NCBI GenBank assembly: GCA_951406725.2 | Contig: OX597814.1 | Location: forward strand, 64,232,001-64,296,000 | DNA from: Octopus vulgaris | Lineage: Eukaryota | DNA: 64,000 nt | Direction of reading: 5' to 3' | Part shown: piece after piece, positions 3,621 through 26,701 of the stretch | Position numbering within the stretch: position 1 is the first letter of the stretch | Layout: every line of letters starts with the position of its first letter | Position numbers and translations under genes: made by a program | Notes under the pieces: model-generated | Seen by the model: only the letters and a program-made list of their open reading frames with translations | Database searches by the model: none | What the model was told of the DNA's origin: nothing

Positions 3621-4097
3621 CTAGCATTAAAGACCCGTCGTTGCCGAGTCATAGTGCTAGTGCATGTATATATGTGTATATATATGTGTACATATTACAT
3701 GTACATCTATATATATACATCTACACATAAAATTCAAAATATAAAGTTATATCTTAATATCGCTAGTGATAACAATACTCAAAATATATAACAGACTGGA
3801 ATTGTTAGCCCGTCTCTTGTAATTTCGATCAATTGTATCTTGTTCTCCCTCTTGTATAGAAGTGTGGCTACAATCCAGCCTACCTCTACTTTCATTTTAA
3901 ATTTTTTTCCGGGACGTCCTTCGTCCCAGATATAATGGTAAAAATAAAATATTTCCACTTTGCAAGTTCGAGTCGAATACTCCCTTGCACGCTCCGTTGA
4001 CTCGAACCTTGCTTCTGTTGTGGCGAATTTGCCGCCTCTGATTAGATAACTTTCATAGTCGCACCAAGACACTTTTCGAAGGTGCTTTCCTCCATGT

Positions 4098-5574
4098 TGT
4101 TTTATTATTACCCACAAGGGGCGAACATAGATGGGACAATACAATCTGATGATGGGGTCAGACAAACGAATGGGTTTTTACAATAAATCGGATTTAAAAA
4201 TTTTCATGAATTACAATAAATGGTCAGAAATCGAAAGATGGGACAGACCGGAAGACATTACGGGTGGAGTGGGTGCGGGTTTAGCTCGGACCCCACGAGC
4301 CCCGCCTCCCCACTGATACTTTTGGTTGCGCTTGGTATTACATTTATGTTGTATCTTTCACTCGCAACTTTCGTGCTACATCCTTCCATCGTTCTTCATA
4401 CACTCTCCTAGTCAGGCATATTCTCTCCAGCCCTATCTTCCTTTTCAGGTGAAAGATGAAATACTTCATCAAACCAGGGCCGGAGATGAACTTGCCTGAC
4501 TGTAAACCTTTCATTCTCGTCTTCCATATCACCTCTTTCGCAATTGCTACTACAACGAGAAAACGAAACTTACCTTCATTCACGAGGAAATCCGGTGGGT
4601 CAATTTTTGTAATCGACTCAGTCGACAGCTGTACTCTTCGTGTACCTGACAACAGCTGTTCGGCATAAACCCACACCTCAGACACGTCCGAACAATGAAC
4701 AATAGCGTGCGGGACGATTTCCCTATCCCGCCCGCATCTTGGACATATCGGACTGTCTTGGCCACCGTGCCTTGCGAGTTTATCCCGAACAGGTAGAGCT
4801 CCTCTGTAGCATTGCCATGCCAGAGACTTCTGGAAGTTGTCCAGTGTCCTCGGCTCGAACGTACGTCGGAACAGACTGGCCAGCTGATTATCGTCGAGAC
4901 CTAGGGTTTCCCCCAAGGTATCTTCACATTCCGCCTCTACCAACCCTCTATAGAAGAATGTGGTGGAACCCCCACCGCAGGCGTTGCCCGAGCGACGGAA
5001 TAGCAGGAGAGCTTGCGACACTCCGTGTACCAAGTACCAAGTTTCGATCTACGATTCAGCCAGGTTTCCCATCCACCGAAACTAGTGAACTTGGGAAACA
5101 TCAGTTTTGCTAGCGAAGACCACACCCGTTCACCATCCAGGTAGAGCCACAGATGTCTTAACCTCAGCGCATGTCTGCGCATCATCAGCCAAGGCATCCC
5201 TAGCCCACCCTTTAACGGTTGTTGACAGCAAGTAGAGCGTTTCACAAGTGGTTTCCCGCCCTTCCACAAGAAGTAGAAGAGCTGTCTTTCCAACTTGATC
5301 AACCACGAATCAGGGCAAGGAACGACGGAAAGGCGGTAGGTGATAACCGATGCGATAAACACATTGGCCACCTCCGCCCTCCCTTTCAGGGATAGCCACC
5401 GCCAAGACCAGGTCTTGGCTACTGCAGCCACCTTGCTCGTTACCTCGCCCCAATTCTTCTCTATTTGGAGGTCTGGACCGAACCAGACCCCTAGCAGTTT
5501 AATCGGACCCTCCGTCCAACGTCCCACGACGCTGTCAGGAGGCATCGACTTGCCTCTCCAGGTGCCGAGTTGCA
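4098..5574 (-). mobile_element. 5'-truncated Tx1/L1-clade LINE copy (end of RT, zinc finger, 3' UTR)
   Basis: Near-identical to 5591-7074. Flanked by exact 16-bp direct repeat GTGCTTTCCTCCATGT (4082-4097 and 5575-5590). ORF pieces 5574-5010 and 5033-4344 include CPRCGRDREIVPHAIVHC. Confidence 0.93.
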
Positions 5575-5835
5575 GTGCTTTCCTCCATGTTGTTTTATTA
5601 TTACCCACAAGGGGCGAACACAGATGGGACAATACAATCTGATGATGGGGTTAGACAAACGAATGGGTTTTTACAATAAATCGGGTTTAAAAATTTTCAT
5701 GAATAACAATAAATGGACAGAAATCGAGTGATAGGACAGACCGGAAGACATTACGGGTGGAGTGGGTGCGGGTTTAGCTCGGACCCCACGAGCCCCGCCT
5801 CCCACTGATACTTTTGGTTGCACTTGATTACATTT

Positions 5836-8800
5836 ATGTTGTAACTTTCATTCGCAACTTCCGTGCTACATCCTTCCATCGTTCTTCATACGCTCCTAGT
5901 CAGGCATATTCTCTCCAGCCCTATCTTCCTTTTCAGGTGAAAGATGAAATAATTCATCAAACCAGGGCCGGAGATGAACTTGCCCGACTGTAAACCTTTC
6001 ATTCTCGTCTTCCATATCACCTCTTTCGCGATTGCTACTACAACGAGAAAACGAAACTTACCTTCATTCACGAGGAAATCCGGTGGGTCAATTTTTGTAA
6101 TCGACTCAGTCGACAGCTGTACTCTTCGTGTACCTTGACAACAGCTGTTCGGCATAAACCCACACCTCAGACACGTCCGGACAATGAACAATCGCGTGCG
6201 GGACGGTTTCCCTATCCCGCCCGCATCTTGGACATATCGGACTGTCTTGGCCACCGTGCCTTGCGAGTTTATCCCGAACAGGTAGAGCTCCTCTGTAGCA
6301 TTGCCATGCCAGAGACTTCTGGAAGTTGTCCAGTGTCCTTGGCTCGAACGTACGTCGGAACAGACTGGCCAGCTGATTATCGTCGAGACCCAGGGTTTCC
6401 CCCAAGGTATCTTCACATTCCGCCTCTACCAACCCTCTATAGAAGAAAGTGGTGGAACCCCCACCGCAGGCGTTGCCCGAGCGACGGAATAGCAGGAGAG
6501 CCTTGCGACACTCCGTGTACCAAGTACCAAGTTTCGATCTACGATTCAGCCAGGTTTCCCATCCACCGAAACTAGTGAACTTGGGAAACATCAGTTTTGC
6601 TAGCGAAGACCACACCCGTTCACCATCCAGGTAGAGCCACAGATGTCTTAACCTCAGCGCATGTCTGCGCATCATCAGCCAAGGCATCCCTAGCCCACCC
6701 TTTAACGGTTGTTGACAGCAAGTAGAGCGTTTCACAAGTGGTTTCCCGCCCTTCCACAAGAAGTAGAAGAGCTGTCTTTCCAACTTGATCAACCACGAAT
6801 CAGGGCAAGGAACGACGGAAAGGCGGTAGGTGATAACCGATGCGATAAACACATTGGCCACCTCCGCCCTCCCTTTCAGGGATAGCCACCGCCAAGACCA
6901 GGTCTTGGCTACTGCAGCCACCTTGCTCGTTACCTCGCCCCAATTCTTCTCTATTTGGAGGTCTGGACCGAACCAGACCCCTAGCAGTTTAATCGGACCC
7001 TCCGTCCAACGTCCCACGACGCTGTCAGGAGGCATCGACTTGCCTCTCCAGGTGCCGAGTTGCAAGCCGACTGACTTTTCGCGATTAACTTTTGCTCCTG
7101 TCACCGTCTCGTACACCTCTATGGCCTTGCCTACTTTACATAGGTGGTCCATTTCGGTTACGATGATGGTGATGTCATCCGCGTACGCTGACACTGATTT
7201 TCCATTACCTGGCTGTCTCGGGATGCCGCTCAGTTTTCGCAGTAATGGCTCAAGAGCCATCACGTACAAAAGCGGGGAGAGCGGACACCCTTGACGAACC
7301 GAGCGTTTGATTTTGAACGGCTTCGACAAGAAGCCGTTCACCCGAACTACCGAGTCGATGTTATCATAAATTTCGATAATCCACCTGAGGAATCCAAGGC
7401 TCAGCCCGAACTGTGCCAGGGCAGATACCAGGTAACGATGGTCGACCCTATCAAAAGCTTTAGATTGGTCTAAATGGACCAGTGCCCCACCCTTGCCAGA
7501 ATCACTATTAAACCCCTCTATAGTGTACCGCATTAGATGGAGATTATCCTGAATGGATCTGCCCGGAACGGCACATGTCTGTGCCCCTCCGATCAGACCA
7601 TCCGCGACACGCGCCAATCTTTTCGATAACACTTTGGCCAAAATCTTCAACTCTGTGTTTAGCAGAGTGATGGGCCTGAAATTATCAATGCACTCCCCCT
7701 TGCTCGGGTCCTTTCTGACGAGAGTCACTACTCCCCGGCGCACAGATCTGGGTATAAGCCCGTTCTGCTGCCAGTTCGCGTAGACCTCCGCCAGTAGGTG
7801 CCCGAACAAGTCTGGCATACTCTTATATAACTCATAGGGTAGACCATCCAAACCCGGCGCCTTGCCCGCACCGCAGTCCGCCATTGCCTCAACCACCTCC
7901 TCAGGCGTGATTGGCCCTTCACAGCCCTCCGCATCTCGCCCCGATAAGCGCGGCAGACCGTCGAGTAGGTCCGTAAAGGCCCTCCTCCTATCCAGTCCGC
8001 CGCACTCACCGAAAAGCTGAGCGAAGTGCTCCTGAAAGGCCTCACACATCTCCTCGGGTTCGTTTATCAACTCACCTTGTTGGTTCGTCAAAGATCGAAT
8101 CGTGGCATCGTTACCATGCTGAGCTTCCACCACTCGGGCCCATCTCACGGCGTTGATTCCTTCACATCCCATATGACGGATTCTAGCCCTGACAATGCAG
8201 CCCATGTGTTTGGCCTCGAGGTGCTGGTTTAACACCAGTCTCTTGGCCGCCACCTGAGCCGCAGAGCCAGTTTTCATGGCTTCCTCTAATTCCTTAACTA
8301 GAGTAGTTTCCCTTCTAGCCTCTCTAGCCACTACTCCTATGCTATATCTAATAGACTCAAACTTGATGGCTCGTTTGAGGGCGTACCACCATTTGTTATT
8401 AATGATGGTACCAGATAGTGCCCTCTGAATTATATTCCTAATCCGGTCTTTGTACTCCTTAATCGCCAAAAGGGACGTATTAAGTTTCCAGTAACCGGAT
8501 CCTCTATTTTTAACCTTATCTATATCAAGCTTACAAGTGACCATTTTATGATCACTGTAGCTGATCGGGTAAAACTGTGGACACTTAGCTATTTTACTGT
8601 CTACTTTTCTAATTAGTATTCTATCTAGATACGACCTGGAAGATCCGTCGCTGTTTGACCATGTCCACAATGGAGCGTTCGGAAATTCCAGCCTATAAGG
8701 ATCTGCTAGCTCAAAGCGGCTTAGCAGTTCCATGAAGCCACTGTTGCCTTTTCTATCTGGACACGAGCCAACATAATCTACATCCGCTTTGCAAATTGTG

Positions 8801-9228
8801 TTAAAGTCTCCTAGCACCACTAATGAATGCGAAGTACCAAGAAAGTTTTCTAGTTCACGAAAATAATCACTTTGCCCTGTATGGTTGGGTGCGTAAATTG
8901 CAACCAGTCTGATAACTTTACCATTACTGAACGTCAAATCCATGACGACCAGCCTACCTTCTGGATCTGCAAAAATTAACTTTTTCTCAGAAACCCGGTT
9001 TCTTTTTAATAGGACCAACACCCCACTCCCGCCTGTAGGACTGCCAGGAGAGAAAAAACTCTCGTAGCCGTCAAACAGCGGGAGTAGACCTCTTGGCCCC
9101 TCTAACCGGGTTTCTGTAGCAACAATAACATCTAAATTACGCGACCTGATATCATGCAGGAAGCGACCTTGCTTCCAGCCTGCTCCCAGGCCGCGCACAT
9201 TTAAACAACCAACATAAATGTAATCCAT
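5836..9228 (-). CDS. ORF2: APE endonuclease, reverse transcriptase, C-terminal CCHC finger (~1130 aa; frameshifts near 6136 and 5890)
   Basis: EN motifs LNVRGL, ATETRL, IYAPN, GDFN, LDRI, SDH. RT motifs KAPGLDG, FRPITLLN, DQSKAFDRV, RQGCPLSPLLY, YADD, KLLGV. Zinc finger CPRC..HAIVHC. 1040 aa open (9228-6106); true C-terminus inferred from the adjacent truncated copy. Confidence 0.95.
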
Positions 9229-9237
9229 TACTTACCT

Positions 9238-10615
9238 TTATATCAGTGGTTCGGTTTTTTCTTCTTCTTCCTTCTCTTTTTCTGGGCCTCGTGGGGGAGT
9301 CTGACGTAGGCCCTCGAATATATGTGGAGATGTTACATCCAACCTAAGTGGGCCTACGTCATGGAAGAATTCTGACTTTATCCGCCCGTAATCCTTCCGG
9401 TCTATTTTGTAAATTACAAAGTCATTTTTTTTCTCTACTTTCTTCACTTTGGCCATGGCTGCCAACACGTTTCCGAGTCTGCTATTTGATGCTTTTACGG
9501 CCATATATGAGTTCATTGACTCTTTTTTCTTTTTTAAAATTACTCTGGGAGGGGTGGTTTCCGTTTTTCTTTTTTTTTTTCCGATAATTTTTGCCCACCC
9601 CTCCTCATTTATCTTTTCCTCGCTCTTTTTTTCTCCGCCGCTGGTTCTGCTGTTACCATCACCTCCACACCTTCAGTCTTCCCTTCTGGGCCGTCTGACG
9701 CTGCTTCTGGTGACACATTGTCTTCTTTTTCTTTTGGCTTAGGTGCTTCCTGCGGTTTGGGTTGGGGCTGGCATTCCGCCCTTACATGCCCCTTCTTACC
9801 GCAGCCGAAGCACCTCGGCTTTCTGCCCTCTACGAAGACTGTGACTCTTTCATCTTCGCTTATCCTTAGAGTCTCTGGGATCTCTTCCAGGGTTTGTACT
9901 TCTGCTTGTATGGCTATTATTATCTTTTGCCCTTTCCAGAATTCTTCTTCTTCTACGGTGGCCTGGAGGATGTTTATTTTTTCCTCCAGGCCTACCATAA
10001 CTGCTGCCACTAGGACTTCGGCATCCGCTTCTGGCGGGATGTTGTTCATTGTGATCTTGGAAGTTCTCTTGCCTTTATACAGGGGTAGGAGAACAATATC
10101 CTCCGCTTTTATGGGTTCCATGGATAGCTTCTTCGCTACCTCCTCTGACGTGAATCTCACCTCCACTGTGCCGTATTTCTTCCCTCGATTGATATACGTA
10201 ATTTTATCCATTATTGGCTTTAAGCAGTTTTCAATCTTTTTCTCCTCTATTTTTTGGATTGCTCTGTTTGTTATACTGAATGTCTTATAGATTATTCTCC
10301 TATTCGAAATATCCTCCTGTATTTGGGCGTTTGAAGCCACGGTTACTTCCGTGCCCTCTTTTGACACACAGTCCGCATGTTTTCCCAGGTTGTCCACGTT
10401 AATTTTTTTATTTTCTTCCCAGCCACTTCAGCGAATTTTTTTGCTGGAGTTGATGCTGGTACTGGTTTTACCATTTTCTTGGGCGATGCCGCCTCTTTTT
10501 TCTTCGGCGACAGCGCCTCTTTTTTTCTTGGCGACAACGCCTCTTTTTTACTTGGCGACAACGCCGGGTATTCATCCTCGCTCGTCACGGGCGAATAAGT
10601 GATGGGGGACTCCAT
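9238..10615 (-). CDS. ORF1 (Tx1-type gag-like RNA-binding protein, CCHC knuckle), ~460 aa, broken by two 1-nt losses in A7 runs (~10405 and ~9628)
   Basis: Joins ORFs 10624-10343, 10397-9609 and a frame open from ~9670 to 9238. CFGCGKKGHVRAEC knuckle; RRM-like segment GTVEVRF; N-terminal SPxK repeats. Confidence 0.85.
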
Positions 10616-11088
10616 CTTGAACAAATGGCTTTAACAAGCCTTTGGTAATCTAAATTAATTGTAGTTTTCCCCCACTGAGGGGGGAACACCAACGCGAAGT
10701 CTTCGCGCGAAGGTTGACTTCGTCAGTTAGACAACAATGGACAAAAAAAAAAGGTAGACCAACAGTATATAATAACAGAGATAAGTAGTATGAGAGCAAA
10801 AATATATATCAACTTACTAATAACGCAAAAAATTGATTTCCTCCATGTGATTTTATTATTACCCACAAGGGGCGAACATAGAGGGGACAATACAATCGGG
10901 GAACTTAAAATAAGAAAGCGAATGACAAGAAAAGGAAAAAATAAAAGTAAAAATGACATATGAAAGAATATTTACAATGAGATGTAAATGCCCACTCGAT
11001 CCCCGGAATCGAGAGGTTACATTTTCGTCACATATATTTCACAATATTTTTCTTTTTTCTCTTCTTTCTTCTCTCTCTTCTCACAGTT

Positions 11089-12493
11089 CTAAACATATTC
11101 CATGATAGTTTTCAATTCTCTAAAGTCTATCACTGAGCCCTCAGGCAGCCGCTCTCTCACTCGAACACTCGTGTAAAATGTTACACTCTCACCGGCAGCT
11201 CTGAGGAACTCAGCGACTCTTTCTTCGGGGATTAGAGCAGTCTCCTGCCACTGATCGGTCATCCTGTTGACCCACACATGTCCCTCCGTATTACTTGTCA
11301 AATCCTTCATTTCAGGGCAGAAATGGAAGGTTACTAACTTGTAGAAGCAGTAATCTTGTTTCCGTCCTACGTTTTCCTTCATTTTTCTTTTCGGGCTTAT
11401 TTCTTCCTTGTTCTCCTCTCTTTGTTTCTCTCTTTCTCTCTTTTTGCCTTCTTTTCTTTCCTCTTCCTTCTCTTGTCTTTTTGGTTCTTTGTCTGTTCTC
11501 TCTTTCTCTCGTGTTTTATGTTCCTTTTCTTTTTCTTTTGTGTGCCGTCTTTTCTTTTCGTTTGATTCTGATCTCTCTCTTGTTTTTTTCCTGTTGTTTC
11601 TTTTTCCTTTTTTTTTTCCTGACTCTGTTTTGGTTCTATTTCTTTCTTTTCTTTTATTTCTTTTTCCTTCATTGACTTATTATTTCCTTTCTCTTGTTGT
11701 TTTGTTTCCTTTTCTATGTTTTCTTTTTCATTTACCGTGTTCTTCTTTTCTTCGAGTTCCTGCTCGCACTCCGCTACGAATTCGTATAACGGGCACTCTT
11801 TTTTAATGTGCCCCCTTGTCCCGCACAAGTAGCAGTTTGGCTTTCTTCCCTCTACAATTACACTGAGGGTTTTCTCATCTTCAATTTCTATTCTGTAGGG
11901 GAACCTTTCAATGTCCTCTTTTGTGGCCATCAAACACAGTTCTACCCCATATCCTCTCCAGTTTATCACGTTGGACTCCTTAAAGGATTCCACCTCCACT
12001 TCCTCTTCTGCTGCTCCTAGAATAGCTGTTGCCAGCCATTCTGTTTTTACTTCTGGGGGTATATTCGGGATTTTAACCCGGACCCCTCTTCTTCCCTTGT
12101 ATGAGGGCCACATTGTAAATGTTTCCGCTCTTAGTACAGTGGTAGCCAGTGAGGCTGCAATTTCTTCCGTTGCACATCTCACCTCCACCGTACCAAATTT
12201 CTTTCCTCTACTCACGTAGGTCGATTTCCCCATTATGTCTCCCAGACATTTTTCGATTTCTGCTATCTCCACTCTTGCCAGTTTCTTTGTATTTTTGTCT
12301 TGGGTTCTATATGTTACAGTCTTGTTTTCTTTGTCCTCTTTTGCTTTCGCGGGGGGATTAGCTTCACGCTATCACCCTCCCTTTTGAATAGCTTTTCATA
12401 TTCTTTGAGTTTACTCTTCTCAAAGAAAACATCCTTCACGATTATCGACGAATCATTATTTTTCTTTCCCGTGACCCCCGCGTAAGTCGCCAT
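11089..12493 (-). CDS. ORF1-like protein, unit 1 (two frameshifts)
   Basis: MATYAG start at 12493; C6 run at 12351-12356 and an A-run indel near 11535 break the frame; CYLCGTRGHIKKEC knuckle. Confidence 0.8.
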
Positions 12494-12869
12494 GACTAGA
12501 GGGTCAATTCACCTTCTTCGGAAGGTTTCCACACGTGGAGGCAAACGCCTCGCGCGATAATAATCAATTTACACAACAAAATTTCACTGTCTAGTCACAG
12601 ATAACAACACGCATAGATTTCCGACACGTGATTTTATTATTACCCACGAGGGGCGAACATAGAGGGGACAGTACAATCGGGGAACTTAAAATAAGAAAGC
12701 AAATGACAAGAAAAGGAAAAAATAAAAGTAAAAAATGACATATGAAAGAATATTTACAATGAGATGCAAATGCCCACTCGATCCCCGGAATCGAGAGGTT
12801 ACATTTTCGTCACATATAGTTCACAATATTTTCTTTTTTCTCTTCTTTCTTCTTTCTCTTCTCACAGTT

Positions 12870-14272
12870 CTAAACATATTCCATGATAGTTTTCAATTCT
12901 CTAAAGTCTATCACTGAGCCCTCAGGCAGCCGCTCTCTCACTCGAACACTCGTGTAAAATGTTACACTCTCACCGGCAGCTCTGAGGAACTCAGCGACTC
13001 TTTCTTCGGGGATTAGAGCAGTCTCCTGCCACTGATCGGTCATCCTGTCGACCCATATATGTCCCTCCGTACTACTTGTCAATTCTTTCATTTCAGGGCA
13101 GAAATGGAAGGTTACTAACTTGTAGAAGCCGTGATCTTGTTTCCGTCCTACGTTTTCCCTCGTTTTTCTTTTCGGGCTTATTTCTTCCTTGTTCTCCTCT
13201 CTTTGTTTCTCTCTTTCTCTCTTTTTGCCTTCTTTCCTTTCCTCTTCCTTCTCTTGTCTTTTTGGTTCTTTGTCTGTTCTCTCTTTCTCTCGTGTTTTAT
13301 GTTCCTTTTCTTTTTCTTTTTGTGTGCCGTCTTTTCTTTTCGTTTGGTTCTGATCTCTCTCTTGTTTTTTTCCTGTTGTTTCTTTTTCCTTTTTCTTTTC
13401 CTGACTCTGTTTTGGTTCTATTTCTTTCTTTTCTTTTATTTCTTTTTCCTTCATTGACTTATTATTTCCTTTCTCTTGTTGTTTTGTTTCCTTTTCTATG
13501 TTTTCTTTTTCATTTACCGTATTCTTCTTTTCGAGCTCCTGCTCGCACTCCGCTACGAATTCGTATAACGGGCACTCTTTTTTAATGTGCCCCCTTGTCC
13601 CGCACAAGTAGCAGTTTGGCTTTCTTCCCTCTACAATTACACTGAGGGTTTTCTCATCTTCAATTTCTATTCTGTAGGGGAACCTTTCAATGTCCTCTTT
13701 TGTGGCCATCAAACACAGTTCCACCCCATATCCTCTCCAGTTTATCACGTTGGACTCCTTAAAGGATTCCACCTCCACTTCCTCTTCTGCTGCTCCTAGA
13801 ATAGCTGTTGCCAGCCATTCTGTTTTTACTTCTGGGGGTATATTCGGGATTTTAACCCGGACCCCTCTTCTTCCCTTGTATGAGGGCCACATTATAAATG
13901 TTTCCGCTCTTAGTACAGTGGTAGCCAGTGAGGCTGCAATTTCTTCCGTTGCATATCTCACCTCCACCGTACCAAATTTCTTGCCTCTACTCACGTAGGT
14001 CGATTTCCCCATTATGTCTCCCAGACATTTTTCGATTTCTGCTATCTCCACTCTTGCCAGTTTCTTTGTATTTTTGTCCTGGGTTCTATATGTTACAGTC
14101 TTGTTTTCTTTGTCCTCTTTTGCTTTCGCGGGGGGATTAGCTTCACGCTATCACCCTCCCTTTTGAATAGCTTTTCATATTCTTTGAGTTTACTTTTCTC
14201 AAAGAAAACATCCTTCACGATTATCGACGAATCATTATTTTTCTTTCCCGTGACCCCCGCGTAAGTCGCCAT
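12870..14272 (-). CDS. ORF1-like protein, unit 2 (one -1 shift at C6)
   Basis: 393-aa open segment plus upstream MATYAG segment; 1403 nt versus 1404 in intact unit 4. Confidence 0.85.
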
Positions 14273-14648
14273 GACTAGAGGGTCAATTCACCTTCTTCGG
14301 AAGGTTTCCACACGTGGAGGCAAACGCCTCGCGCGATAATAATCAATTTACACAACAAAATTTCACTGTCTAGTCACAAATAACAACACGCATAGATTTC
14401 CGACACGTGATTTTATTATTACCCACGAGGGGCGAACATAGAGGGGACAGTACAATCGGGGAACTTAAAATAAGAAAGCAAATGACAAGAAAAGGAAAAA
14501 ATAAAAGTAAAAAATGACATATGAAAGAATATTTACAATGAGATGCAAATGCCCACTCGATCCCCGGAATCGAGAGGTTACATTTTCGTCACATATAGTT
14601 CACAATATTTTCTTTTTTCTCTTCTTTCTTCTCTCTCTTCTCACAGTT

Positions 14649-16052
14649 CTAAACATATTCCATGATAGTTTTCAATTCTCTAAAGTCTATCACTGAGCCC
14701 TCAGGCAGCCGCTCTCTCACTCGAACACTCGTGTAAAATGTTACACTCTCACCGGCAGCTCTGAGGAACTCAGCGACTCTTTCTTCGGGGATTAGAGCAG
14801 TCTCCTGCCACTGATCGGTCATCCTGTCGACCCATATATGTCCCTCCGTACTACTTGTCAATTCTTTCATTTCAGGGCAGAAATGGAAGGTTACTAACTT
14901 GTAGAAGCCGTGATCTTGTTTCCGTCCTACGTTTTCCCTCGTTTTTCTTTTCGGGCTTATTTCTTCCTTGTTCTCCTCTCTTTGTTTCTCTCTTTCTCTC
15001 TTTTTGCCTTCTTTCCTTTCCTCTTCCTTCTCTTGTCTTTTTGGTTCTTTGTCTGTTCTATCTTTCTCTCGTGTTTTATGTTCCTTTTCTTTTTCTTTTT
15101 GTGTGCCGTCTTTTCTTTTCGTTTGGTTCTGATCTCTCTCTTGTTTTTTTCCTGTTGTTTCTTTTTCCTTTTTCTTTTCCTGACTCTGTTTTGGTTCTAT
15201 TTCTTTCTTTTCTTTTATTTCTTTTTCCTTCATTGACTTATTATTTCCTTTCTCTTGTTGTTTTGTTTCCTTTTCTATGTTTTCTTTTTCATTTACCGTA
15301 TTCTTCTTTTCGAGTTCCTGCTCGCACTCCGCTACGAATTCGTATAACGGGCACTCTTTTTTAATGTGCCCCCTTGTCCCGCACAAGTAGCAGTTTGGCT
15401 TTCTTCCCTCTACAATTACACTGAGGGTTTTCTCGTCTTCAATTTCTATTCTGTAGGGGAACCTTTCAATGTCCTCTTTTGTGGCCATCAAACACAGTTC
15501 CACCCCATATCCTCTCCAGTTTATCACGTTGGACTCCTTAAAGGATTCCACCTCCACTTCCTCTTCTGCTTGCTCCTAGAATAGCTGTTGCCAGCCATTC
15601 TGTTTTTACTTCTGGGGGTATATTCGGGATTTTAACCCGGACCCCTCTTCTTCCCTTGTATGAGGGCCACATTATAAATGTTTCCGCTCTTAGTACAGTG
15701 GTAGCCAGTGAGGCTGCAATTTCTTCCGTTGCATATCTCACCTCCACCGTACCAAATTTCTTGCCTCTACTCACGTAGGTCGATTTCCCCATTATGTCTC
15801 CCAGACATTTTTCGATTTCTGCTATCTCCACTCTTGCCAGTTTCTTTGTATTTTTGTCCTGGGTTCTATATGTTACAGTCTTGTTTTCTTTGTCCTCTTT
15901 TGCTTTCGCGGGGGGATTAGCTTCACGCTATCACCCTCCCTTTTGAATAGCTTTTCATATTCTTTGAGTTTACTTTTCTCAAAGAAAACATCCTTCACGA
16001 TTATCGACGAATCATTATTTTTCTTTCCCGTGACCCCCGCGTAAGTCGCCAT
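14649..16052 (-). CDS. ORF1-like protein, unit 3 (C6 shift plus 1-nt insertion near 15570)
   Basis: Split ORFs 15831-15538 and 15557-14649. Confidence 0.8.
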
Positions 16053-16428
16053 GACTAGAGGGTCAATTCACCTTCTTCGGAAGGTTTCCACACGTGGAGG
16101 CAAACGCCTCGCGCGATAATAATCAATTTACACAACAAAATTTCACTGTCTAGTCACAAATAACAACACGCATAGATTTCCGACACGTGATTTTATTATT
16201 ACCCACGAGGGGCGAACATAGAGGGGACAGTACAATCGGGGAACTTAAAATAAGAAAGCAAATGACAAGAAAAGGAAAAAATAAAAGTAAAAAATGACAT
16301 ATGAAAGAATATTTACAATGAGATGCAAATGCCCACTCGATCCCCGGAATCGAGAGGTTACATTTTCGTCACATATAGTTCACAATATTTTCTTTTTTCT
16401 CTTCTTTCTTCTCTCTCTTCTCACAGTT

Positions 16429-17832
16429 CTAAACATATTCCATGATAGTTTTCAATTCTCTAAAGTCTATCACTGAGCCCTCAGGCAGCCGCTCTCTCAC
16501 TCGAACACTCGTGTAAAATGTTACACTCTCACCGGCAGCTCTGAGGAACTCAGCGACTCTTTCTTCGGGGATTAGAGCAGTCTCCTGCCACTGATCGGTC
16601 ATCCTGTCGACCCATATATGTCCCTCCGTACTACTTGTCAATTCTTTCATTTCAGGGCAGAAATGGAAGGTTACTAACTTGTAGAAGCCGTGATCTTGTT
16701 TCCGTCCTACGTTTTCCCTCGTTTTTCTTTTCGGGCTTATTTCTTCCTTGTTCTCCTCTCTTTGTTTCTCTCTTTCTCTCTTTTTGCCTTCTTTCCTTTC
16801 CTCTTCCTTCTCTTGTCTTTTTGGTTCTTTGTCTGTTCTATCTTTCTCTCGTGTTTTATGTTCCTTTTCTTTTTCTTTTTGTGTGCCGTCTTTTCTTTTC
16901 GTTTGGTTCTGATCTCTCTCTTGTTTTTTTCCTGTTGTTTCTTTTTCCTTTTTCTTTTCCTGACTCTGTTTTGGTTCTATTTCTTTCTTTTCTTTTATTT
17001 CTTTTTCCTTCATTGACTTATTATTTCCTTTCTCTTGTTGTTTTGTTTCCTTTTCTATGTTTTCTTTTTCATTTACCGTATTCTTCTTTTCGAGTTCCTG
17101 CTCGCACTCCGCTACGAATTCGTATAACGGGCACTCTTTTTTAATGTGCCCCCTTGTCCCGCACAAGTAGCAGTTTGGCTTTCTTCCCTCTACAATTACA
17201 CTGAGGGTTTTCTCGTCTTCAATTTCTATTCTGTAGGGGAACCTTTCAATGTCCTCTTTTGTGGCCATCAAACACAGTTCTACCCCATATCCTCTCCAGT
17301 TTATCACGTTGGACTCCTTAAAGGATTCCACCTCCACTTCCTCTTCTGCTGCTCCTAGAATAGCTGTTGCCAGCCATTCTGTTTTTACTTCTGGGGGTAT
17401 ATTCGGGATTTTAACCCGGACCCCTCTTCTTCCCTTGTATGAGGGCCACATTATAAATGTTTCCGCTCTTAGTACAGTGGTAGCCAGTGAGGCTGCAATT
17501 TCTTCCGTTGCACATCTCACCTCCACCGTACCAAATTTCTTTCCTCTACTCACGTAGGTCGATTTCCCCATTATGTCTCCCAGACATTTTTCGATTTCTG
17601 CTATCTCCACTCTTGCCAGTTTCTTTGTATTTTTGTCTTGGGTTCTATATGTTACAGTCTTGTTTTCTTTGTCCTCTTTTGCTTTCGCGGGGGGGATTAG
17701 CTTCACGCTATCACCCTCCCTTTTGAATAGCTTTTCATATTCTTTGAGTTTACTTTTCTCAAAGAAAACATCCTTCACGATTATCGACGAATCATTATTT
17801 TTCTTTCCCGTGACCCCCGCGTAAGTCGCCAT
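16429..17832 (-). CDS. ORF1-like protein, unit 4, intact 467 aa (RRM-like region, CCHC knuckle, K/E-rich linker, C-terminal domain)
   Basis: Uninterrupted ATG to stop with C7 run. Homologous to the autonomous ORF1: STYVSRGKKFGTVEVR vs ITYINRGKKYGTVEVR; NIPPE in both; VEGRKPNCYLCGTRGH vs VEGRKPRCFGCGKKGH. Confidence 0.92.
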   Translation of the reverse strand: MATYAGVTGKKNNDSSIIVKDVFFEKSKLKEYEKLFKREGDSVKLIPPAKAKEDKENKTVTYRTQDKNTKKLARVEIAEIEKCLGDIMGKSTYVSRGKKFGTVEVRCATEEIAASLATTVLRAETFIMWPSYKGRRGVRVKIPNIPPEVKTEWLATAILGAAEEEVEVESFKESNVINWRGYGVELCLMATKEDIERFPYRIEIEDEKTLSVIVEGRKPNCYLCGTRGHIKKECPLYEFVAECEQELEKKNTVNEKENIEKETKQQEKGNNKSMKEKEIKEKKEIEPKQSQEKKKEKETTGKKQERDQNQTKRKDGTQKEKEKEHKTREKDRTDKEPKRQEKEEERKEGKKREREKQREENKEEISPKRKTRENVGRKQDHGFYKLVTFHFCPEMKELTSSTEGHIWVDRMTDQWQETALIPEERVAEFLRAAGESVTFYTSVRVRERLPEGSVIDFRELKTIMEYV

Positions 17833-18211
17833 GACTAGAGGGTCAATTCACCTTCTTCGGAAGGTTTCCACACGTGGAGGCAAACGCCTCGCGCGATAAT
17901 AATCACTTTACACAACAAAATTTCAACGTCTAATCACAGATAACAACACGCAAATTGATTTCCGACACGTGATTTTATTACTACCCACAAGGGGCGAACA
18001 TAGAGGGGACAATACAATCGAGGAACTTAAAATAAGAAAGCGAAATGACAAGAAAGGGAAAAAATAAAAGTAAAAAATGACATATGAAAGAATATTTACA
18101 ATGAGATGCAAATGCCCACTCGATCCCCGAAATCGAGAGGTTACATTTTCGTCACATATATTTCACAATAATTTTCTTTTTTCTCTTCTTTCTTCTCTCT
18201 CTCTCACAATT

Positions 18212-19614
18212 TTATACGTATTCCATAATACCTTTCAAGTCTCTAAAGTCAATCACTGAGCCCTCAGGCAGCCGCTCTTTCATTCGAACACCCGTGTAAA
18301 AAATTACACTCTCTCCGGCAGCTCTGAGGAACTCAGCGACTCTTTCTTCGGGGATCAGAGCAGTCTCCTGCCACTGATCAGTCATCCTGTCGACCCACAC
18401 ATGTCCCTCCGTACTACATGTCAATTCCTTCATTTCAGGGCAGAAATGGAAGGTTACTAACTTGTAGAAGCCGTGATCTTGTTTCCGTCCTACGTTTTCC
18501 CTCGTTTTTCTTTTCGGGCTTATTTCTTCCTTGTTCTCCTCTCTTTGTTTCTCTCTTTCTCTCTTTTTGCCTTCTTTTCTTTCCTCTTCCTTCTCTTGTC
18601 TTTTTGGTTCTTTGTCTGTTCTCTCTTTCTCTCGTGTTTTATGTTCCTTTTCTTTTTCTTTTTGTGTGCCGTCTTTTCTTTTCGTTTGGTTCTGATCTCT
18701 CTCTTGTTTTTTTCCTGTTGTTTCTTTTTCCTTTTTCTTTTCCTGACTCTGTTTTGGTTCTATTTCTTTCTTTTCTTTTATTTCTTTTTCCTTCATTGAC
18801 TTATTATTTCCTTTCTCTTGTTGTTTTGTTTCCTTTTCTATGTTTTCTTTTTCATTTACCGTATTCTTCTTTTCGAGCTCCTGCTCGCACTCCGCTACGA
18901 ATTCGTATAACGGGCACTCTTTTTTAATGTGCCCCCTTGTCCCGCACAAGTAGCAGTTTGGCTTTCTTCCCTCTACAATTACACTGAGGGTTTTCTCATC
19001 TTCAATTTCTATTCTGTAGGGGAACCTTTCAATGTCCTCTTTTGTGGCCATCAAACACAGTTCCACCCCATATCCTCTCCAGTTTATCACGTTGGACTCC
19101 TTAAAGGATTCCACCTCCACTTCCTCTTCTGCTGCTCCTAGAATAGCTGTTGCCAGCCATTCTGTTTTTACTTCTGGGGGTATATTCGGGATTTTAACCC
19201 GGACCCCTCTTCTTCCCTTGTATGAGGGCCACATTATAAATGTTTCCGCTCTTAGTACAGTGGTAGCCAGTGAGGCTGCAATTTCTTCCGTTGCATATCT
19301 CACCTCCACCGTACCAAATTTCTTGCCTCTACTCACGTAGGTCGATTTCCCCATTATGTCTCCCAGACATTTTTCGATTTCTGCTATCTCCACTCTTGCC
19401 AGTTTCTTTGTATTTTTTTCTTGGGTTCTATATGTTACAGTCTTGTTTTCTTTGTCCTCTTTTGCTTTCGCGGGGGGATTAGCTTCACGCTATCACCCTC
19501 CCTTTTGAATAGTTTTTCATATTCTTTGAGTTTACTCTTCTCAAAGAAAACCTCCTTCACGATTATTGCCGAATCATTATTTTTCTTTCCCGTGACCCCC
19601 GCGTAAGTCGCCAT
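18212..19614 (-). CDS. ORF1-like protein, unit 5 (C6 shift; mosaic of the two subtypes)
   Basis: 393-aa open segment; N-terminal part like unit 2, C-terminus LKGIMEYV like unit 6. Confidence 0.85.
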
Positions 19615-19991
19615 GACTAGAGGGTCAATTCACCTTCTTCGGAAGGTTTCCAAACGTGGAGGCAAACGCCTCGCGCGATATTAATCACTTTACACAACAA
19701 AATTTCAACGTCTAATCACAGATAACAACACGCATAGATTTCCGACACGTGATTTTATTACTACCCACAAGGGGCGAACATAGAGGGGACAATACAATCG
19801 GGGAACTTAAAATAAGAAAGCGAAATGACAAGAAAAGGAAAAAATAAAAATAAAAATGACAAATGAAAGAATATTTACAATGAGATGCAAATGCCCACTC
19901 GATCCCCGGAATCGAGAGGTTACATTTTCGTCACATATATTTCACAATAATTTTCTTTTTTCTCTTCTTTCTTCTCTCTCTTCTCACAATT

Positions 19992-21390
19992 TTATACGTA
20001 TTCCATAATACCTTTCAAGTCTCTAAAGTCAATCACTGAGCCCTCAGGCAGCCGCTCTTTCATTCGAACACCCGTGTAAAAAATTACACTCTCTCCAGCT
20101 GCTCTGAGGAACTCAGCGACTCTTTCTTCGGGGATCAGAGCAGTCTCCTGCCACTGATCAGTCATCCTGTTGACCCACACATGTCCCTCCGTACTACATG
20201 TCAATTCCTTCATTTCGGGGCTGAAATGGAAGGTTATTAACTTGTAGTAATCTTGTTTCCGTCCTACGTTTTCTCTCGTTTTTCTTTTCGGGCTTACTTC
20301 TTCCTTGTTCTCCTCTCTTTGTTTCTCTCTTTCTCTCTTTTTGCCTTCTTTTCTTTCTTCTTCCTTCTCTTGTCTTTTTGGTTCTTTGTCTGTTCTATCT
20401 TTCTCTCGTGTTTTATGTTCCTTTTCTTTTTCTTTTTGTGTACCGTCTTTTCTTTTCGTTTGGTTCTGATCTCTCTCTTGTTTTTTTCCTGTTGTTTCTT
20501 TTTCCTTTTTCTTTTCCTGACTCTGTTTTGGTTCTATTTCTTTCTTTTCTTTTATTTCTTTTTCCTTCGTTGACTTATTATTTCCTTTCTCTTGTTGTTT
20601 TGTCTCCTTTTCTATGTTTTCTTTTTCATTTACCGTATTCTTCTTTTCTTCAATTTCCTTCTCATACTCCGCTATGAATTCGTATAACGGGCACTCTTTT
20701 TTAATGTGCCCCCTTGTCCCGCACAAGTAGCAGTTTGGCTTTCTTCCCTCTACAATTACACTGAGGGTTTTCTCGTCTTCGATTTCTATTCTATAGGGGA
20801 ACCTTTCAATGTCCTCTTTTGTGGCCATCAAACACAGTTCTACCCCATATCCTCTCCAATTTACTGCATTGGACTCCTTAAAGGATTCCACCTCCACTTC
20901 CTCTTCTGCTGCTCCTAGAATAGCTGTTGCCAGCCATTCTGTTTTTACTTCTGGGGGTATATTCGGGATTTTAACCGGACCCCTCTTCTTCCCTTGTATG
21001 AGGGCCACATTATAAATGTTTCCGCTCTTAGAACAGTGGTAGCCAGTGAGGCTGCAATTTCTTCCGTTGCACATCTCACCTCCACCGTACCAAATTTTTT
21101 TCCTCTACTCACGTAGGTCGATTTATCCATTATGTCTCCCAGACATTTTTCGATCTCTGCTATCTCCACTCTTGCCAGTTTCTTTGTACTTTTGTCCTGG
21201 GTTCTATACGTTACAGTTTTGTTTTCTTTGTCCTCTTTTGCTTTCGCGGGGGGATTAGCTTCACGCTATCACCCTCCCTTTTGAATAGTTTTTCATATTC
21301 TTTGAGTTTACTCTTCTCAAAGAAAACATCCTTCACGATTATTGCCGAATCATTATTATTCTTTCCCGTGACCCCCGCGTAAGTCGCCAT
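19992..21390 (-). CDS. ORF1-like protein, unit 6 (C6 shift plus 1-nt deletion near 20975)
   Basis: Split ORFs 21169-20945 and 21074-19992. Confidence 0.8.
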
Positions 21391-21769
21391 GACTAGAGGG
21401 TCAATTCACCTTCTTCGGAAGGTTTCCAAACGTGGAGGCAAATGCCTCGCGCGATATTAATCACTTTACACAACAAAATTTCAACGTCTAATCACAGATA
21501 ACAACACGTATAGATTTCCGACACGTGATTTTATTACTACCCACAAGGGGCGAACATAGAGGGGACAATACAATCGGGGAACTTAAAATAAGAAAGCGAA
21601 ATGACAAGAAGGGAAAAAAATAAAAATAAAAATGACAAATGAAAGAATATTTACAATGAGATGCAAATGCCCACTCGATCCCCGGAATCGAGAGGTTACA
21701 TTTTCGTCACATATAGTTCACAATTTTTTTCCTCTTTTTCTCTTCTTTCTTCTCTCTCCTCTCACAATC

Positions 21770-23169
21770 TCACACGTATTCCATAATACTTTTCAAGTCT
21801 CTAAAGTCAATCACTGAGCCCTCAGGCAGCCGCTCTTTCACTCGAACACCCGTGTAAAAAATTACACTCTCTCCAGCTGCTCTGAGGAACTCAGCGACTC
21901 TTTCTTCGGGGATCAGAGCAGTCTCCTGCCACTGATCAGTCATCCTGTTGACCCACACATGTCCCTCCATACTACATGTCAATTCCTTCATTTCGGGGCT
22001 GAAATGGAAGGTTATTAACTTGTAGTAATCTTGTTTCCGTCCTACGTTTTCTCTCGTTTTTCTTTTCGGGCTTACTTCTTCCTTGTTCTCCTCTCTTTGT
22101 TTCTCTCTTTCTCTCTTTTTGCCTTCTTTTCTTTCTTCTTCCTTCTCTTGTCTTTTTGGTTCTTTGTCTGTTCTATCTTTCTCTCGTGTTTTATGTTCCT
22201 TTTCTTTTTCTTTTTGTGTGCCGTCTTTTCTTTTCGTTTGGTTCTGTTCTCTCTCTTGTTTTTTTCCTGTTGTTTCTTTTTCCTTTTTCTTTTCCTGACT
22301 CTGTTTTGGTTCTATTTCTTTCTTTTCTTTTATTTCTTTTTCCTTCGTTGACTTATTATTTCCTTTCTCTTGTTGTTTTGTCTCCTTTTCTATGTTTTCT
22401 TTTTCATTTACCGTATTCTTCTTTTCTTCATTTTCCTTCTCATACTCCGCCATGAATTCATATAACGGGCACTCTTTTTTAATGTGCCCCCTTGTCCCGC
22501 ACAAGTAGCAGTTTGGCTTTCTTCCCTCTACAATTACACTGAGGGTTTTCTCGTCTTCGATTTCTATTCTATAGGGGAACCTTTCAATGTCCTCTTTTGT
22601 GGCCATCAAACACAGTTCTACCCCATATCCTCTCCAATTTACTGCATTGGACTCCTTAAAGGATTCCACCTCCACTTCCTCTTCTGCTGCTCCTAGAATA
22701 GCTGTTGCCAGCCATTCTGTTTTTACTTCTGGGGGTATATTCGGGATTTTAACCCGGACCCCTCTTCTTCCCTTGTATGAGGGCCACATTATAAATGATT
22801 CCGCTCTTAGAACAGTGGTAGCCAGTGAGGCTGCAATTTCTTCCGTTGCACATCTCACCTCCACCGTACCAAATTTTTTTCCTCTACTCACGTAGGTCGA
22901 TTTATCCATTATGTCTCCCAGACATTTTTCGATCTCTGCTATCTCCACTCTTGCCAGTTTCTTTGTACTTTTGTCCTGGGTTCTATACGTTACAGTTTTG
23001 TTTTCCTTGTCCTCCTTTGCTTTCGCGGGGGGATTAGCTTCACGCTATCACCCTCCCTTTTGAATAGCTTTTCATATTCTTTGATTTTACTTTTCTCAAA
23101 GAAAACATCCTTCACGATTATTGCCGAATCATTATTATTCTTTCCCGTGACCCCCGCGTAAGTCGCCAT
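21770..23169 (-). CDS. ORF1-like protein, unit 7 (C6 shift)
   Basis: 392-aa open segment plus upstream MATYAG segment. Confidence 0.85.
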
Positions 23170-23548
23170 GACTAGAGGGTCAATTCACCTTCTTCTGAAG
23201 GTTTCCAAACGTGGAGGCAAACGCCTCGCGCGATATTAATCACTTTACACAACAAAATTTCACTGTCTAATCACAGATAACAACACGCATAGATTTCCGA
23301 CACGTGATTTTATTATTACCCACGAGGGGCGAACATAGAGGGGACAATACAATCGGGGAACTTAAAATAAGAAAGCAAATGACAAGAAAAGGAAAAAATA
23401 AAAGTAAAAAATGACATATGAAAGAATATTTACAATGAGATGCAAATGCCCACTCGATCCCCGGAATCGAGAGGTTACATTTTCGTCACATATAGTTCAC
23501 AATTTTTTTCTCTTTTTTCTCTTCTTTCTTCTCTCTCCTCTCACAATC

Positions 23549-24950
23549 TCACACGTATTCCATAATACTTTTCAAGTCTCTAAAGTCAATCACTGAGCCC
23601 TCAGGCAGCCGCTCTTTCACTCGAACACCCGTGTAAAAAATTACACTCTCTCCAGCTGCTCTGAGGAACTCAGCGACTCTTTCTTCGGGGATCAGAGCAG
23701 TCTCCTGCCACTGATCAGTCATCCTGTTGACCCACACATGTCCCTCCATACTACATGTCAATTCCTTCATTTCGGGGCTGAAATGGAAGGTTATTAACTT
23801 GTAGTAATCTTGTTTCCGTCCTACGTTTTCTCTCGTTTTTCTTTTCGGGCTTACTTCTTCCTTGTTCTCCTCTCTTTGTTTCTCTCTTTCTCTCTTTTTG
23901 CCTTCTTTTCTTTCTTCTTCCTTCTCTTGTCTTTTTGGTTCTTTGTCTGTTCTCTCTTTCTCTCGTGTTTTATGTTCCTTTTCTTTTTCTTTTTGTGTGC
24001 CGTCTTTTCTTTTCGTTTGGTTCTGTTCTCTCTCTTGTTTTTTTCCTGTTGTTTCTTTTTCCTTTTTCTTTTCCTGACTCTGTTTTGGTTCTATTTCTTT
24101 CTTTTCTTTTATTTCTTTTTCCTTCGTTGACTTATTATTTCCTTTCTCTTGTTGTTTTGTCTCCTTTTCTATGTTTTCTTTTTCATTTACCGTATTCTTC
24201 TTTTCTTCATTTTCCTTCTCATACTCCGCTATGAATTCATATAACGGGCACTCTTTTTTAATGTGCCCCCTTGTCCCGCACAAGTAGCAGTTTGGCTTTC
24301 TTCCCTCTACAATTACACTGAGGGTTTTCTCGTCTTCGATTTCTATTCTATAGGGGAACCTTTCAATGTCCTCTTTTGTGGCCATCAAACACAGTTCTAC
24401 CCCATATCCTCTCCAATTTACTGCGTTGGACTCCTTAAAGGATTCCACCTCCACTTCCTCTTCTGCTGCTCCTAGAATAGCTGTTGCCAGCCATTCTGTT
24501 TTTACTTCTGGGGGTATATTCGGGATTTTAACCCGGACCCCTCTTCTTCCCTTGTATGAGGGCCACATTATAAATGATTCCGCTCTTAGAACAGTGGTAG
24601 CCAGTGAGGCTGCAATTTCTTCCGTTGCACATCTCACCTCCACCGTACCAAATTTTTTTCCTCTACTCACGTAGGTCGATTTATCCATTATGTCTCCCAG
24701 ACATTTTTCGATCTCTGCTATCTCCACTCTTGCCAGTTTCTTTGTACTTTTGTCCTGGGTTCTATACGTTACAGTTTTGTTTTCCTTTGTCCTCCTTTGC
24801 TTTCGCGGGGGGGATTAGCTTCACGCTATCACCCTCCCTTTTGAATAGCTTTTCATATTCTTTGATTTTACTTTTCTCAAAGAAAACATCCTTCACGATT
24901 ATTGCCGAATCATTATTATTCTTTCCCGTGACCCCCGCGTAAGTCGCCAT
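23549..24950 (-). CDS. ORF1-like protein, unit 8 (C7 but 1-nt insertion near 24787)
   Basis: ORFs 24950-24762 and 24727-23549. Confidence 0.85.
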
Positions 24951-25818
24951 GACTAGAGGGTCAATTCACCTTCTTCTGAAGGTTTCCAAACGTGGAGGCA
25001 AACGCCTCGCGCGATATTAATCACTTTACACAACAAAATTTCACTGTCTAATCACAGATAACAACACGCATAGATTTCCGACACGTGTTCAAATCTTTTT
25101 TCTCTTCATTGTATACTTTATAGACAATAGGCTTTTCTTTAATTTAATTTTTTATTATCCATCTGGACTATTCCATTTCTGCACGCTAATTTTATTTTTA
25201 ATTTATTCTCATTCATGTGAAACCACTTATTCAAGTTCAAGTCATTGATTCAATTTTATACCAATTGCTATTTTTACTTTTGTTATGTTACGATTATATC
25301 ATACTTTAATTTGATTGTAATTATTACTTACTACATATAATTCAATTGTTATTATTATTTTTATTGTTAAAGTGAAAGTATCTGACATAAAATAGAGAAA
25401 TGTTTTTGTATCACTTTTAACACGTAATACTGATATAGTGGAGAAGATATGATATTGCTATGGGCTCGCTCTAGGCAAGAAGTTGAACTTTTTTTCCCAT
25501 GAAACTACATGGACCCTAAGTAAGGCATGTGTAAAATTTGAATGAAATTGGTTGAGTAGTTCTCAAGTTTTAGGGAAACACACAGACAGACAAACAGACA
25601 GACAGATAGGCAGACAGACACACATTCTCAGTTTTATATATATAAAGATATATATATATATATATAATAAAAATAAGCATCAATAATGTCTCCTCTTCTT
25701 GTTCCTTATTTTGATTATAATTATAATCACCCCACAGATTTTTATGGATAACACCATACAGAATTCTGGTGCATCTAAATTAAGTACCATATTCATTTGA
25801 ATCTAAATTTTTGCTGAA

Positions 25819-26656: not shown

Positions 26657-26699
<43 letters not shown>

Positions 26700-26701
<2 letters not shown>

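What the first reader, a model, noticed from the sequence alone, without database searches (positions are those of the whole stretch)
4082..10848. Repeated insertion at one nucleotide: sequence-specific targeting of TTTCCTCCATGT
Seen: the truncated copy has a 16-bp TSD (GTGCTTTCCTCCATGT) and the full copy a 12-bp TSD (TTTCCTCCATGT). Both 3' tails, and that of ORF1-only unit 1, join immediately after CCATGT. The two RT copies differ at many 3'-UTR sites, consistent with independent insertions. Known: many Tx1-clade APE endonucleases are target-specific (Tx1L, Keno, Kibi, Koshi, Dewa). Inference: an unrecognised target motif, with the stack growing on its left side and the truncated copy youngest.
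Basis: partly seen in the sequence, partly recalled or inferred. Interest (0 to 1): 0.8.

Follow-up and report, generated by a model that had tools for sequence, protein, structure and literature searches.

The report
LINE stack targeting a Helitron site
Ten jumping-gene copies (two carrying reverse-transcriptase sequence, eight with only an RNA-binding gene) sit head to tail at one base inside a small rolling-circle transposon, likely because each copy carries a short mimic of the landing site at its front end and so likely rebuilds the site for the next.

Summary
In detail: an exact 16-bp duplication flanks the truncated copy, and TTTCCTCCATGT precedes three tails. The system is larger than reported. 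Two L1/Tx1-like RT copies and eight ORF1-only units (4098-25086) interrupt a 1,039-bp element with canonical Helitron ends. All 11 TTTCCNNCANGT matches in the window are the 11 stack junctions (chance 0.63). Eight read TTTCCGACACGT and form the units' 5' ends, including the one touching host DNA, so the motif is both target and element-borne tag. The 12-bp 'TSD' is therefore ambiguous. Four contigs of another organism's run show the same host flank. Copy differences bear purifying selection, which favours separate source lineages. No genome was held, so the empty site and a flank logo are untested. Transposon-targeting Tx1 LINEs, TSD stacking and ORF1-only partners are each known; I found no paper on a Helitron target. 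The scan noted similar Helitron stacks elsewhere in this genome. New variant; interest 0.5.

The parts
3621..4097 (-). 3' part (477 bp) of the host non-autonomous Helitron-like element; terminal hairpin and CTAG followed by T in a (TA)n run
   Evidence: (hairpin -8.5 kcal/mol, z -3.15, 2 of 200 shuffles); defining ends
4082..4097 (+). host target sequence GTGCTTTCCTCCATGT; inferred first nick after 4097
   Evidence: same host flank beyond it in 4 contigs of run X13
4098..5574 (-). 5'-truncated RT copy (C-terminal part of ORF2, 246-nt 3' UTR, tail); no microhomology at the truncation; 1-bp gap near 5011 against the full copy
5575..5590 (+). second copy of the 16-bp target (TSD of the truncated copy); the full copy's tail follows it
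5591..10836 (-). full-length LINE: ORF1 about 10615-9241, in three frames, broken at two T runs near 10409 and 9625; ORF2 9228-6106 (1,040 aa, APE + RT + zf-RVT), frame lost after the zinc finger near 6135
   Evidence: many run contigs differ by one base at these three places, so some breaks may be assembly errors
10837..10848 (+). TTTCCTCCATGT at the 5' end of the full copy: TSD, element-borne tag, or both; unit 1 tail follows
   Evidence: junction bridged by one contig in run X16 (record 32)
10849..25086 (-). eight ORF1-only units U1-U8 (10849-12629, 12630-14408, 14409-16188, 16189-17970, 17971-19750, 19751-21526, 21527-23305, 23306-25086), 1,776-1,782 bp; ORF up to 467 aa with zf-CCHC; each begins with a 5' tag that reads TTTCCGACACGT on +; each shares a 47-nt tail with the RT copies (91-96%)
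25087..25648 (-). 5' part (562 bp) of the host Helitron-like element, starting A|TC at 25648; GTTCAAATC on + directly follows the last tag
25117..25122 (-). TATAAA 36 nt (and TATACA 29 nt) upstream of the insertion base in element sense; possible host promoter (inferred)
   Evidence: chance 0.035 for an 11-nt window, looked for after a lead; one of 2 TATAWA outside the terminal TA run

Best explanation
An L1/Tx1-like LINE and an ORF1-only partner family sit stacked at one base inside a non-autonomous Helitron-like element, and they likely got there by repeated site-specific target-primed reverse transcription. Shown: ten head-to-tail elements, one motif at all eleven junctions, a shared 47-nt tail, a 16-bp duplication, canonical Helitron ends, intact endonuclease and RT motifs. 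Inferred: (1) the endonuclease nicks the + strand in TTTCCTCCATGT^GTTCAAATC, a site read from the two outer flanks and never seen empty. (2) ORF2p copies any RNA with the shared tail, its own or a partner's. (3) A second nick 12-16 nt away leaves an overhang; full-length RNAs begin with a target-like tag (sense ACATGGAGGAAA in the RT element, ACGTGTCGGAAA in the units) whose cDNA would pair with that overhang and stand in for the TSD, whereas a 5'-truncated cDNA lacks the tag and leaves a true 16-bp TSD. (4) Only the 5'-side junction (right on +) keeps tag plus upstream host, so the next element would land there. The likely order is truncated copy, full copy, then U1 towards U8, with some near-identical neighbours (U2/U3, U7/U8) possibly made by local duplication or conversion.
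For: 11 of 11 motif hits are junctions, chance 0.63. U8 touches host DNA yet carries the unit variant, not the host motif, so the tag travels with the element. The full copy's 5' end resembles unit 5' ends beyond the 12-mer. Host ends: A|TC, hairpin, CTAG|T. Run X13 (organism B): 4 contigs continue left of the TSD as ACACTTTTCGAAG, the window's host flank; run X16 (organism C): one contig bridges an RT-type 5' end and a shared-type tail, then leaves unit 1. pN/pS between units 0.08-0.33 in 11 of 11 pairs tested (of 28 possible); RT pair UTR-enriched with a synonymous excess. Precedent: R1 arrays grow by insertion into the TSD at the 5' end of earlier copies, and some R1 RNAs carry target sequence at the 5' end that pairs with the cut site (PMC2718515); tandem SINEU-3 copies sandwich a TSD (PMC4494074). 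Weak age hints: U1 has 10 private substitutions, U8 none; truncated-copy alleles dominate in organisms B and C at the 6 shared sites shown.
Against: One locus only; no genome; the empty site was never seen. The age gradient is uneven: U7 has 6 private changes, U3 none and U2 one. Only 6 of the 22 RT-pair substitution sites appear among the 40 of 548 rows shown. The truncated copy is closer to the family majority at those sites, which can also be read as young. Junction sequences alone fit both growth directions once tags are element-borne. Position-distance correlation (rho 0.79, 3 of 10,080 permutations) fits local duplication equally well. A SINE-like repeat with the same tail core sits in another flank (58469), so the tail does not fix the target.
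Confidence: 0.55

Rival explanations
1. Position-directed targeting: ORF2p is drawn to a transcription start site in the Helitron (about 30-36 nt behind a TATA box), and the 5' tags are the first transcribed bases of host-promoter read-through RNAs, captured from earlier sites. Sequence reading by the endonuclease is loose. Growth is again on the 5' side.
For: TATAAA at -36 and TATACA at -29 from the nick, C^A at the nick. The tag tolerates 3 changes in 12 between families. The endonuclease hairpin loop has 9 residues as in promiscuous human L1, not 11 as in Tx1L. Lead taken from e1-8671901.
Against: The TATA search followed the lead and is modest (chance 0.035). No RNA start data exist here. 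Nine of 12 motif bases are kept across two families, which suits sequence reading or pairing.
Confidence: 0.2
2. Few true insertions: two or three retrotranspositions, with the rest of the stack (perhaps also the truncated copy) made by tandem duplication, unequal crossing-over or recombination between stacks in different Helitron copies.
For: U2/U3 differ at 4 sites and U7/U8 at 14; neighbours are most alike; units are mosaic. A duplication of 4082-5574 would give the same layout as a truncated insertion with a TSD.
Against: Differences between units and between RT copies show purifying selection, not neutral decay. Both RT alleles occur at high depth in one run at 5705, 5728 and 5733. No microhomology at the truncation. 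A chance breakpoint 16 nt from the tail is unlikely (inference).
Confidence: 0.13
3. One reading: the endonuclease reads TTTCCTCCATGT alone, every insertion goes into the left junction, and the truncated copy is youngest.
For: The truncated copy duplicates host bases (GTGC) absent from the tags. Tails end in A-rich sequence plus C or CA, partly like the host upstream of the nick. The truncated copy matches the runs' listed other allele at 6 of 6 sites shown.
Against: The left junction lacks the host half of the site. Eight junctions lack the 12-mer. The R1 precedent points the other way. U1, next to the RT copies, has the most private changes.
Confidence: 0.12

Closest known systems
Transposon-targeting Tx1-clade LINEs: Tx1L in Tx1D, crocodilian Tx1-Mar in Mariner-N4_AMi, Tx1-9_AMi in Harbinger, with SINEU-3 passengers (PMC4494074, passages and section 15 read; PMC1950540, passages read)
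   Same: APE/RT LINE at a fixed position in a non-autonomous DNA transposon; 16-bp TSD as for SINEU-3; tandem insertions; non-autonomous passengers.
   Different: Host has Helitron ends; passengers encode ORF1; junction tags differ by family and travel with the element; the endonuclease loop has 9 residues, not 11; clade membership untested.
Drosophila R1 tandem arrays in 28S rDNA (PMC2718515, passages and section 13 read)
   Same: APE LINE; arrays grow into the TSD at the 5' end of earlier copies; some lineages carry target bases at the RNA 5' end.
   Different: Target is a transposon, not rDNA; ten elements of two kinds; in R1 the spacer is the host TSD, here mostly an element-specific variant.
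ORF1-only non-autonomous LINEs: HAL1 (L1), HeT-A (Jockey), Ag-Sponge (CR1) (PMC5753468 and PMC5786205, passages read)
   Same: One ORF1-like protein, no RT, 3' tail shared with an autonomous partner; head-to-tail arrays with the partner as for HeT-A and TART (array layout recalled).
   Different: Interstitial and site-specific; ORF1 only 35% identical to the partner's over 207 aa; only 47 nt of tail shared.

Membership tests
APE-type LINE (L1/Tx1 group) | N-terminal APE endonuclease with catalytic residues | tested here: met
   PF03372 E 1.3e-13; N, E, Y, GDFN, D, SDH motifs align to L1 EN
APE-type LINE (L1/Tx1 group) | non-LTR RT with YADD, closer to L1 than to R2 | tested here: met
   PF00078 E 1.2e-30; human L1 ORF2 E 5.6e-65, best R2 3.6e-26; YADD at 682
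APE-type LINE (L1/Tx1 group) | upstream ORF1 with zinc knuckle; C-terminal zinc motif in ORF2 | tested here: met
   zf-CCHC weak in partner ORF1 (E 0.04, below cut-off), above cut-off in unit ORF (E 8.6e-5); zf-RVT E 4e-8
APE-type LINE (L1/Tx1 group) | TSD and 5' truncation | tested here: met
   16-bp exact duplication around a truncated copy
Tx1 clade | RT groups with named Tx1 references in a tree | not testable with these tools
   no named Tx1 reference RT was obtained; the tree of 49 rows places it (100/100) with P0001-P0003 and L081, L082, L089, L092, none named to a clade
Tx1 clade | Tx1L-like 11-residue hairpin loop (feature of Tx1L, not of the whole clade) | tested here: not met
   9 residues between the T and S anchors, as in L1
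Target-specific LINE (Kojima criterion) | one kind of sequence in over 20% of flanks genome-wide | tested here: inconclusive
   criterion; only this locus and 4 contigs of one run; no genome; public contig scans empty
Helitron (non-autonomous host) | 5' TC, 3' CTRR, subterminal hairpin, insertion in AT | tested here: met
   against the definition in PMC3789558
Helitron (non-autonomous host) | multicopy family, both halves from one copy | tested here: inconclusive
ORF1-only non-autonomous LINE (HAL1-like) | ORF1 homolog only, no RT, tail shared with partner | tested here: met
   (no ORF2 hit in 10849-25086; 47-nt tail)
ORF1-only non-autonomous LINE (HAL1-like) | independent mobilisation (dispersed copies with own junctions) | tested here: inconclusive
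   purifying selection between units; no other locus seen

The most novel reading that the evidence does not exclude
A LINE lineage that homes to a promoter start site inside a Helitron, is transcribed from that borrowed promoter, and uses family-specific 5' RNA tags as portable landing pads, so that helper-dependent ORF1-only elements build polar chains that the Helitron could carry to new places. Its sister lineage builds pure head-to-tail arrays of tens of kilobases in another host, so chain building may be an old trait of the clade.
Probability: 0.2. Interest if true: 0.75.

Novelty: new variant of a known kind. Interest (0 to 1): 0.5.

Why it matters
Few APE endonuclease targets are mapped to the base, and the 5' joining step of LINE insertion is poorly understood. 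This locus offers a defined nick site, a natural contrast between a tag-less truncated insertion (true TSD) and tagged full-length ones (tag in place of the TSD), and a partner family whose tag differs at 3 of 12 bases. That makes it directly testable whether enzyme, RNA tag or promoter position picks the site. It also adds Helitrons to the hosts of transposon-targeting LINEs, if the literature gap holds.

Tried and rejected
No own genome is held. Exact scans for the tail in metagenome and viral contigs and for the host flank in prokaryote genome contigs found 0. Rfam found nothing in the window, so the target is not a listed RNA gene, and nothing at gathering score in 9 sister-array loci (4 weak microRNA hits in 4 loci). 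No RNA holder on record was listed. A-to-I editing: the T>C excess in the runs is not significant after base composition (p 0.13-0.31) and only 3 of the units' private changes are A>G; rejected here. No stable fold in the shared tail (z -0.08, -1.12, 0.66) or at three junctions. Two older relics (2003-3019 minus, 29076-30687 plus) carry neither tail nor motif. No DNA similarity between the stack's ends or the host and any of 135 fetched loci; the tag pattern occurred twice, in one locus. No named homolog among the close hits. Look-ups of earlier findings by sequence, near place and relatives were empty. The organism is probably an octopus; this rests on recalled repeat types and unchecked scan notes, not on a call.
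Full report
Observation. TTTCCTCCATGT stands at 4086, 5579 and 10837 and nowhere else in the window. The truncated copy (4098-5574) lies between two exact copies of GTGCTTTCCTCCATGT, the full copy between two 12-bp matches, and three tails start right after CCATGT. The two RT copies differ at 29 columns; substitutions are enriched in the 3' UTR (9 of 246 against 13 of 1,231 nt, p=0.006).

Anatomy. Everything lies on the minus strand. The full copy has an ORF1 broken at two T runs and a 1,040-aa ORF2 with APE endonuclease, RT and zf-RVT. Its closest solved relative is human L1 ORF2p (E 5.6e-65). Run contigs often differ by one base at the ORF1 breaks and at the frame change after the zinc finger, so some breaks may be assembly errors. 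To the right follow eight units of 1,776-1,782 bp. They encode only an ORF1 homolog (35% identity over 207 aa) and share only the last 47 nt with the RT copies. The DNA on either side of the stack forms a 1,039-bp element that starts A|TC at 25648 and ends in a hairpin and CTAG|T at 3621, the defining ends of Helitrons (PMC3789558, passages). That it is multicopy, and that both halves come from one copy, was not shown here.

The motif is target and tag. The relaxed pattern TTTCCNNCANGT has 11 matches in 64 kb, against 0.63 expected, and they are the 11 junctions of the stack. Three read TTTCCTCCATGT; eight read TTTCCGACACGT and end each unit on +, that is, begin it in sense. U8 borders host DNA and still has the unit variant, where a plain TSD would give the host motif. 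U1, whose tail follows TTTCCTCCATGT, has the unit variant too. So the units carry their tag. The 24 nt beside the motif in the full copy resemble unit 5' ends, best U4 (5 of 2000 shuffles; U2 and U3 30, U1 68, U5-U8 130-154), and not the host (909 of 2000). The 12-bp match at 10837 is thus probably element-borne too. The 16-bp repeat is the one clear TSD: it holds host bases (GTGC) absent from the tags and shows no microhomology at the truncation. The seven internal unit junctions are not independent events if units were duplicated locally.

Evidence from outside the window. No genome is held, and pattern scans of three public collections were empty. I laid 4 of the 24 listed runs on 5560-11030. 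In X13 (organism B) four contigs continue left of the TSD as ACACTTTTCGAAG, which is the window's host flank at 4069-4081. In X16 (organism C) one contig bridges an RT-type 5' end and a shared-type tail and then leaves unit 1. Limits: 24 of 2,515 loose-end rows were shown, the host-flank row appeared for one run only, the four contigs may be variants of one locus, and no empty site was seen. In X11, single contigs of the 5' region have depth 1,300-1,500 against 12-30 for rare joints, a hint of tens of near-identical copies, though the tool warns that depth is no copy number. Loose ends at the unit tail were mixed (39 contigs, agreement 0.51, in X11) and SINE-like, matching the repeat at 58469 that shares the tail core but sits in another flank. 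The tail therefore does not fix the target; specificity is a claim about this LINE family only.

Independent arrivals. In the coding part the RT copies differ by 7 synonymous and 6 non-synonymous changes, where 24-28% synonymous is expected (p 0.018-0.045). Both alleles occur at high depth in X1 at 5705, 5728 and 5733. Units show pN/pS 0.08-0.33 in the 11 pairs computed. Divergence thus arose mostly in active source lineages. Against this, U2/U3 differ at 4 sites, neighbours are most alike (rho 0.79) and units are mosaic, so local duplication or conversion also acted.

Direction of growth. In target-primed reverse transcription (established knowledge) the nick that primes the tail lies at the start of the TSD in element sense. 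After insertion the 5' junction keeps both sides of the nick and the 3' junction loses the upstream side. Here only the right end still reads tag then GTTCAAATC. Stage and Eickbush drew this conclusion for R1: new copies enter the TSD at the 5' end of old ones, and some R1 RNAs carry 5' target bases that pair with the cut site (PMC2718515, section 13 and passages). That makes the truncated copy likely the oldest and U8 the youngest. Age hints are weak and mixed. Private substitutions are 10, 1, 0, 1, 4, 3, 6, 0 for U1-U8. The truncated copy's alleles dominate in organisms B and C at the 6 of 22 substitution sites that were shown, which fits an older shared type but can also be read as closeness to a young majority.

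What picks the site is open. The endonuclease has its catalytic residues; its hairpin loop is 9 residues as in L1, not 11 as in Tx1L (PMC1950540, passages), which does not decide the matter. A TATAAA lies 36 nt and a TATACA 29 nt upstream of the nick in element sense (chance 0.035, sought after the lead in e1-8671901). Promoter-directed targeting with tags captured from read-through RNA is the main rival.

Relatives. The nearest proteins are unnamed (59%, 40%, 38%). Forty of 55 loci from prokaryote genome contigs (L081-L120, filed in one bacterial bin, by inference DNA of a eukaryote host) hold a 40%-identical LINE; in the four loci self-compared it repeats head to tail, and most loci share its ORF2 region. 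It groups with the window element at 100/100. I saw no shared tag at its junctions by eye.

Comparison and novelty. Known: Tx1 LINEs that target piggyBac, Mariner, Harbinger and LTR elements, with passengers in tandem around a TSD (PMC4494074, passages and section 15); TSD-driven arrays (R1); ORF1-only partners (PMC5753468, PMC5786205, passages). An Octopus vulgaris annotation lists 13 recently active L1-Tx1 families, and the passages I read mention no target (PMC13282606). Searches listed no paper on a Helitron-targeting LINE or on site-specific LINEs in cephalopods; most were seen as listings only, and the library lacks most subscription papers and Repbase reports. No supplements were read; those of PMC4494074 may list further targets. 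Earlier scan notes describe similar Helitron stacks on other pieces of this genome; they are unchecked leads and shaped my host and TATA checks.

Verdict. A real, likely site-specific LINE stack. New variant of a known kind; interest 0.5.

Noticed in passing
L081-L120 (e.g. L092:1-15102, L089:1-10914): Contigs up to 94 kb filed in a bacterial bin hold head-to-tail arrays (period about 6.4-6.9 kb) of a LINE sister to the window element, with shared ORF2 and about 720 nt of 3' region but varied 5'/ORF1 modules (14 clusters among 48 junction regions). Probably eukaryote host DNA.
   Followed up: partly
window 58460-58693: SINE-like repeat (type recalled) with the same tail core TTACTACCCACAAGGGG, joined to the head of another copy of that repeat, not to the Helitron motif; related pieces at 38206-38636 and 50391-50602.
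   Followed up: partly
window 2003-3019 (-) and 29076-30687 (+): Two older, broken relatives of ORF2 (36-56% identity), without the tail or the motif.
   Followed up: partly
window 10849-25086: Units are mosaic: the 3' 200 nt of U8 match U2-U4 while the rest matches U7; U4's 5' end resembles the full RT copy's more than the others do.
   Followed up: partly
window 6385 and 10852: In runs X11 and X13 a joint links 6385 to the shared tail through 38 other letters that lack the motif; possibly a relative with another target. Unexplained.
   Followed up: no
window 16432-17832 (-): The unit ORF1 resembles unnamed CCHC proteins by language-model features (best 0.93) and, at 0.90, a cluster with ZCCHC3 RNA-binding domains; lead only.
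   Followed up: no
window 26690-28227 and 61278-63052: Another interspersed repeat with RT-like remains, present twice in opposite orientation (78-87% identity).
   Followed up: no
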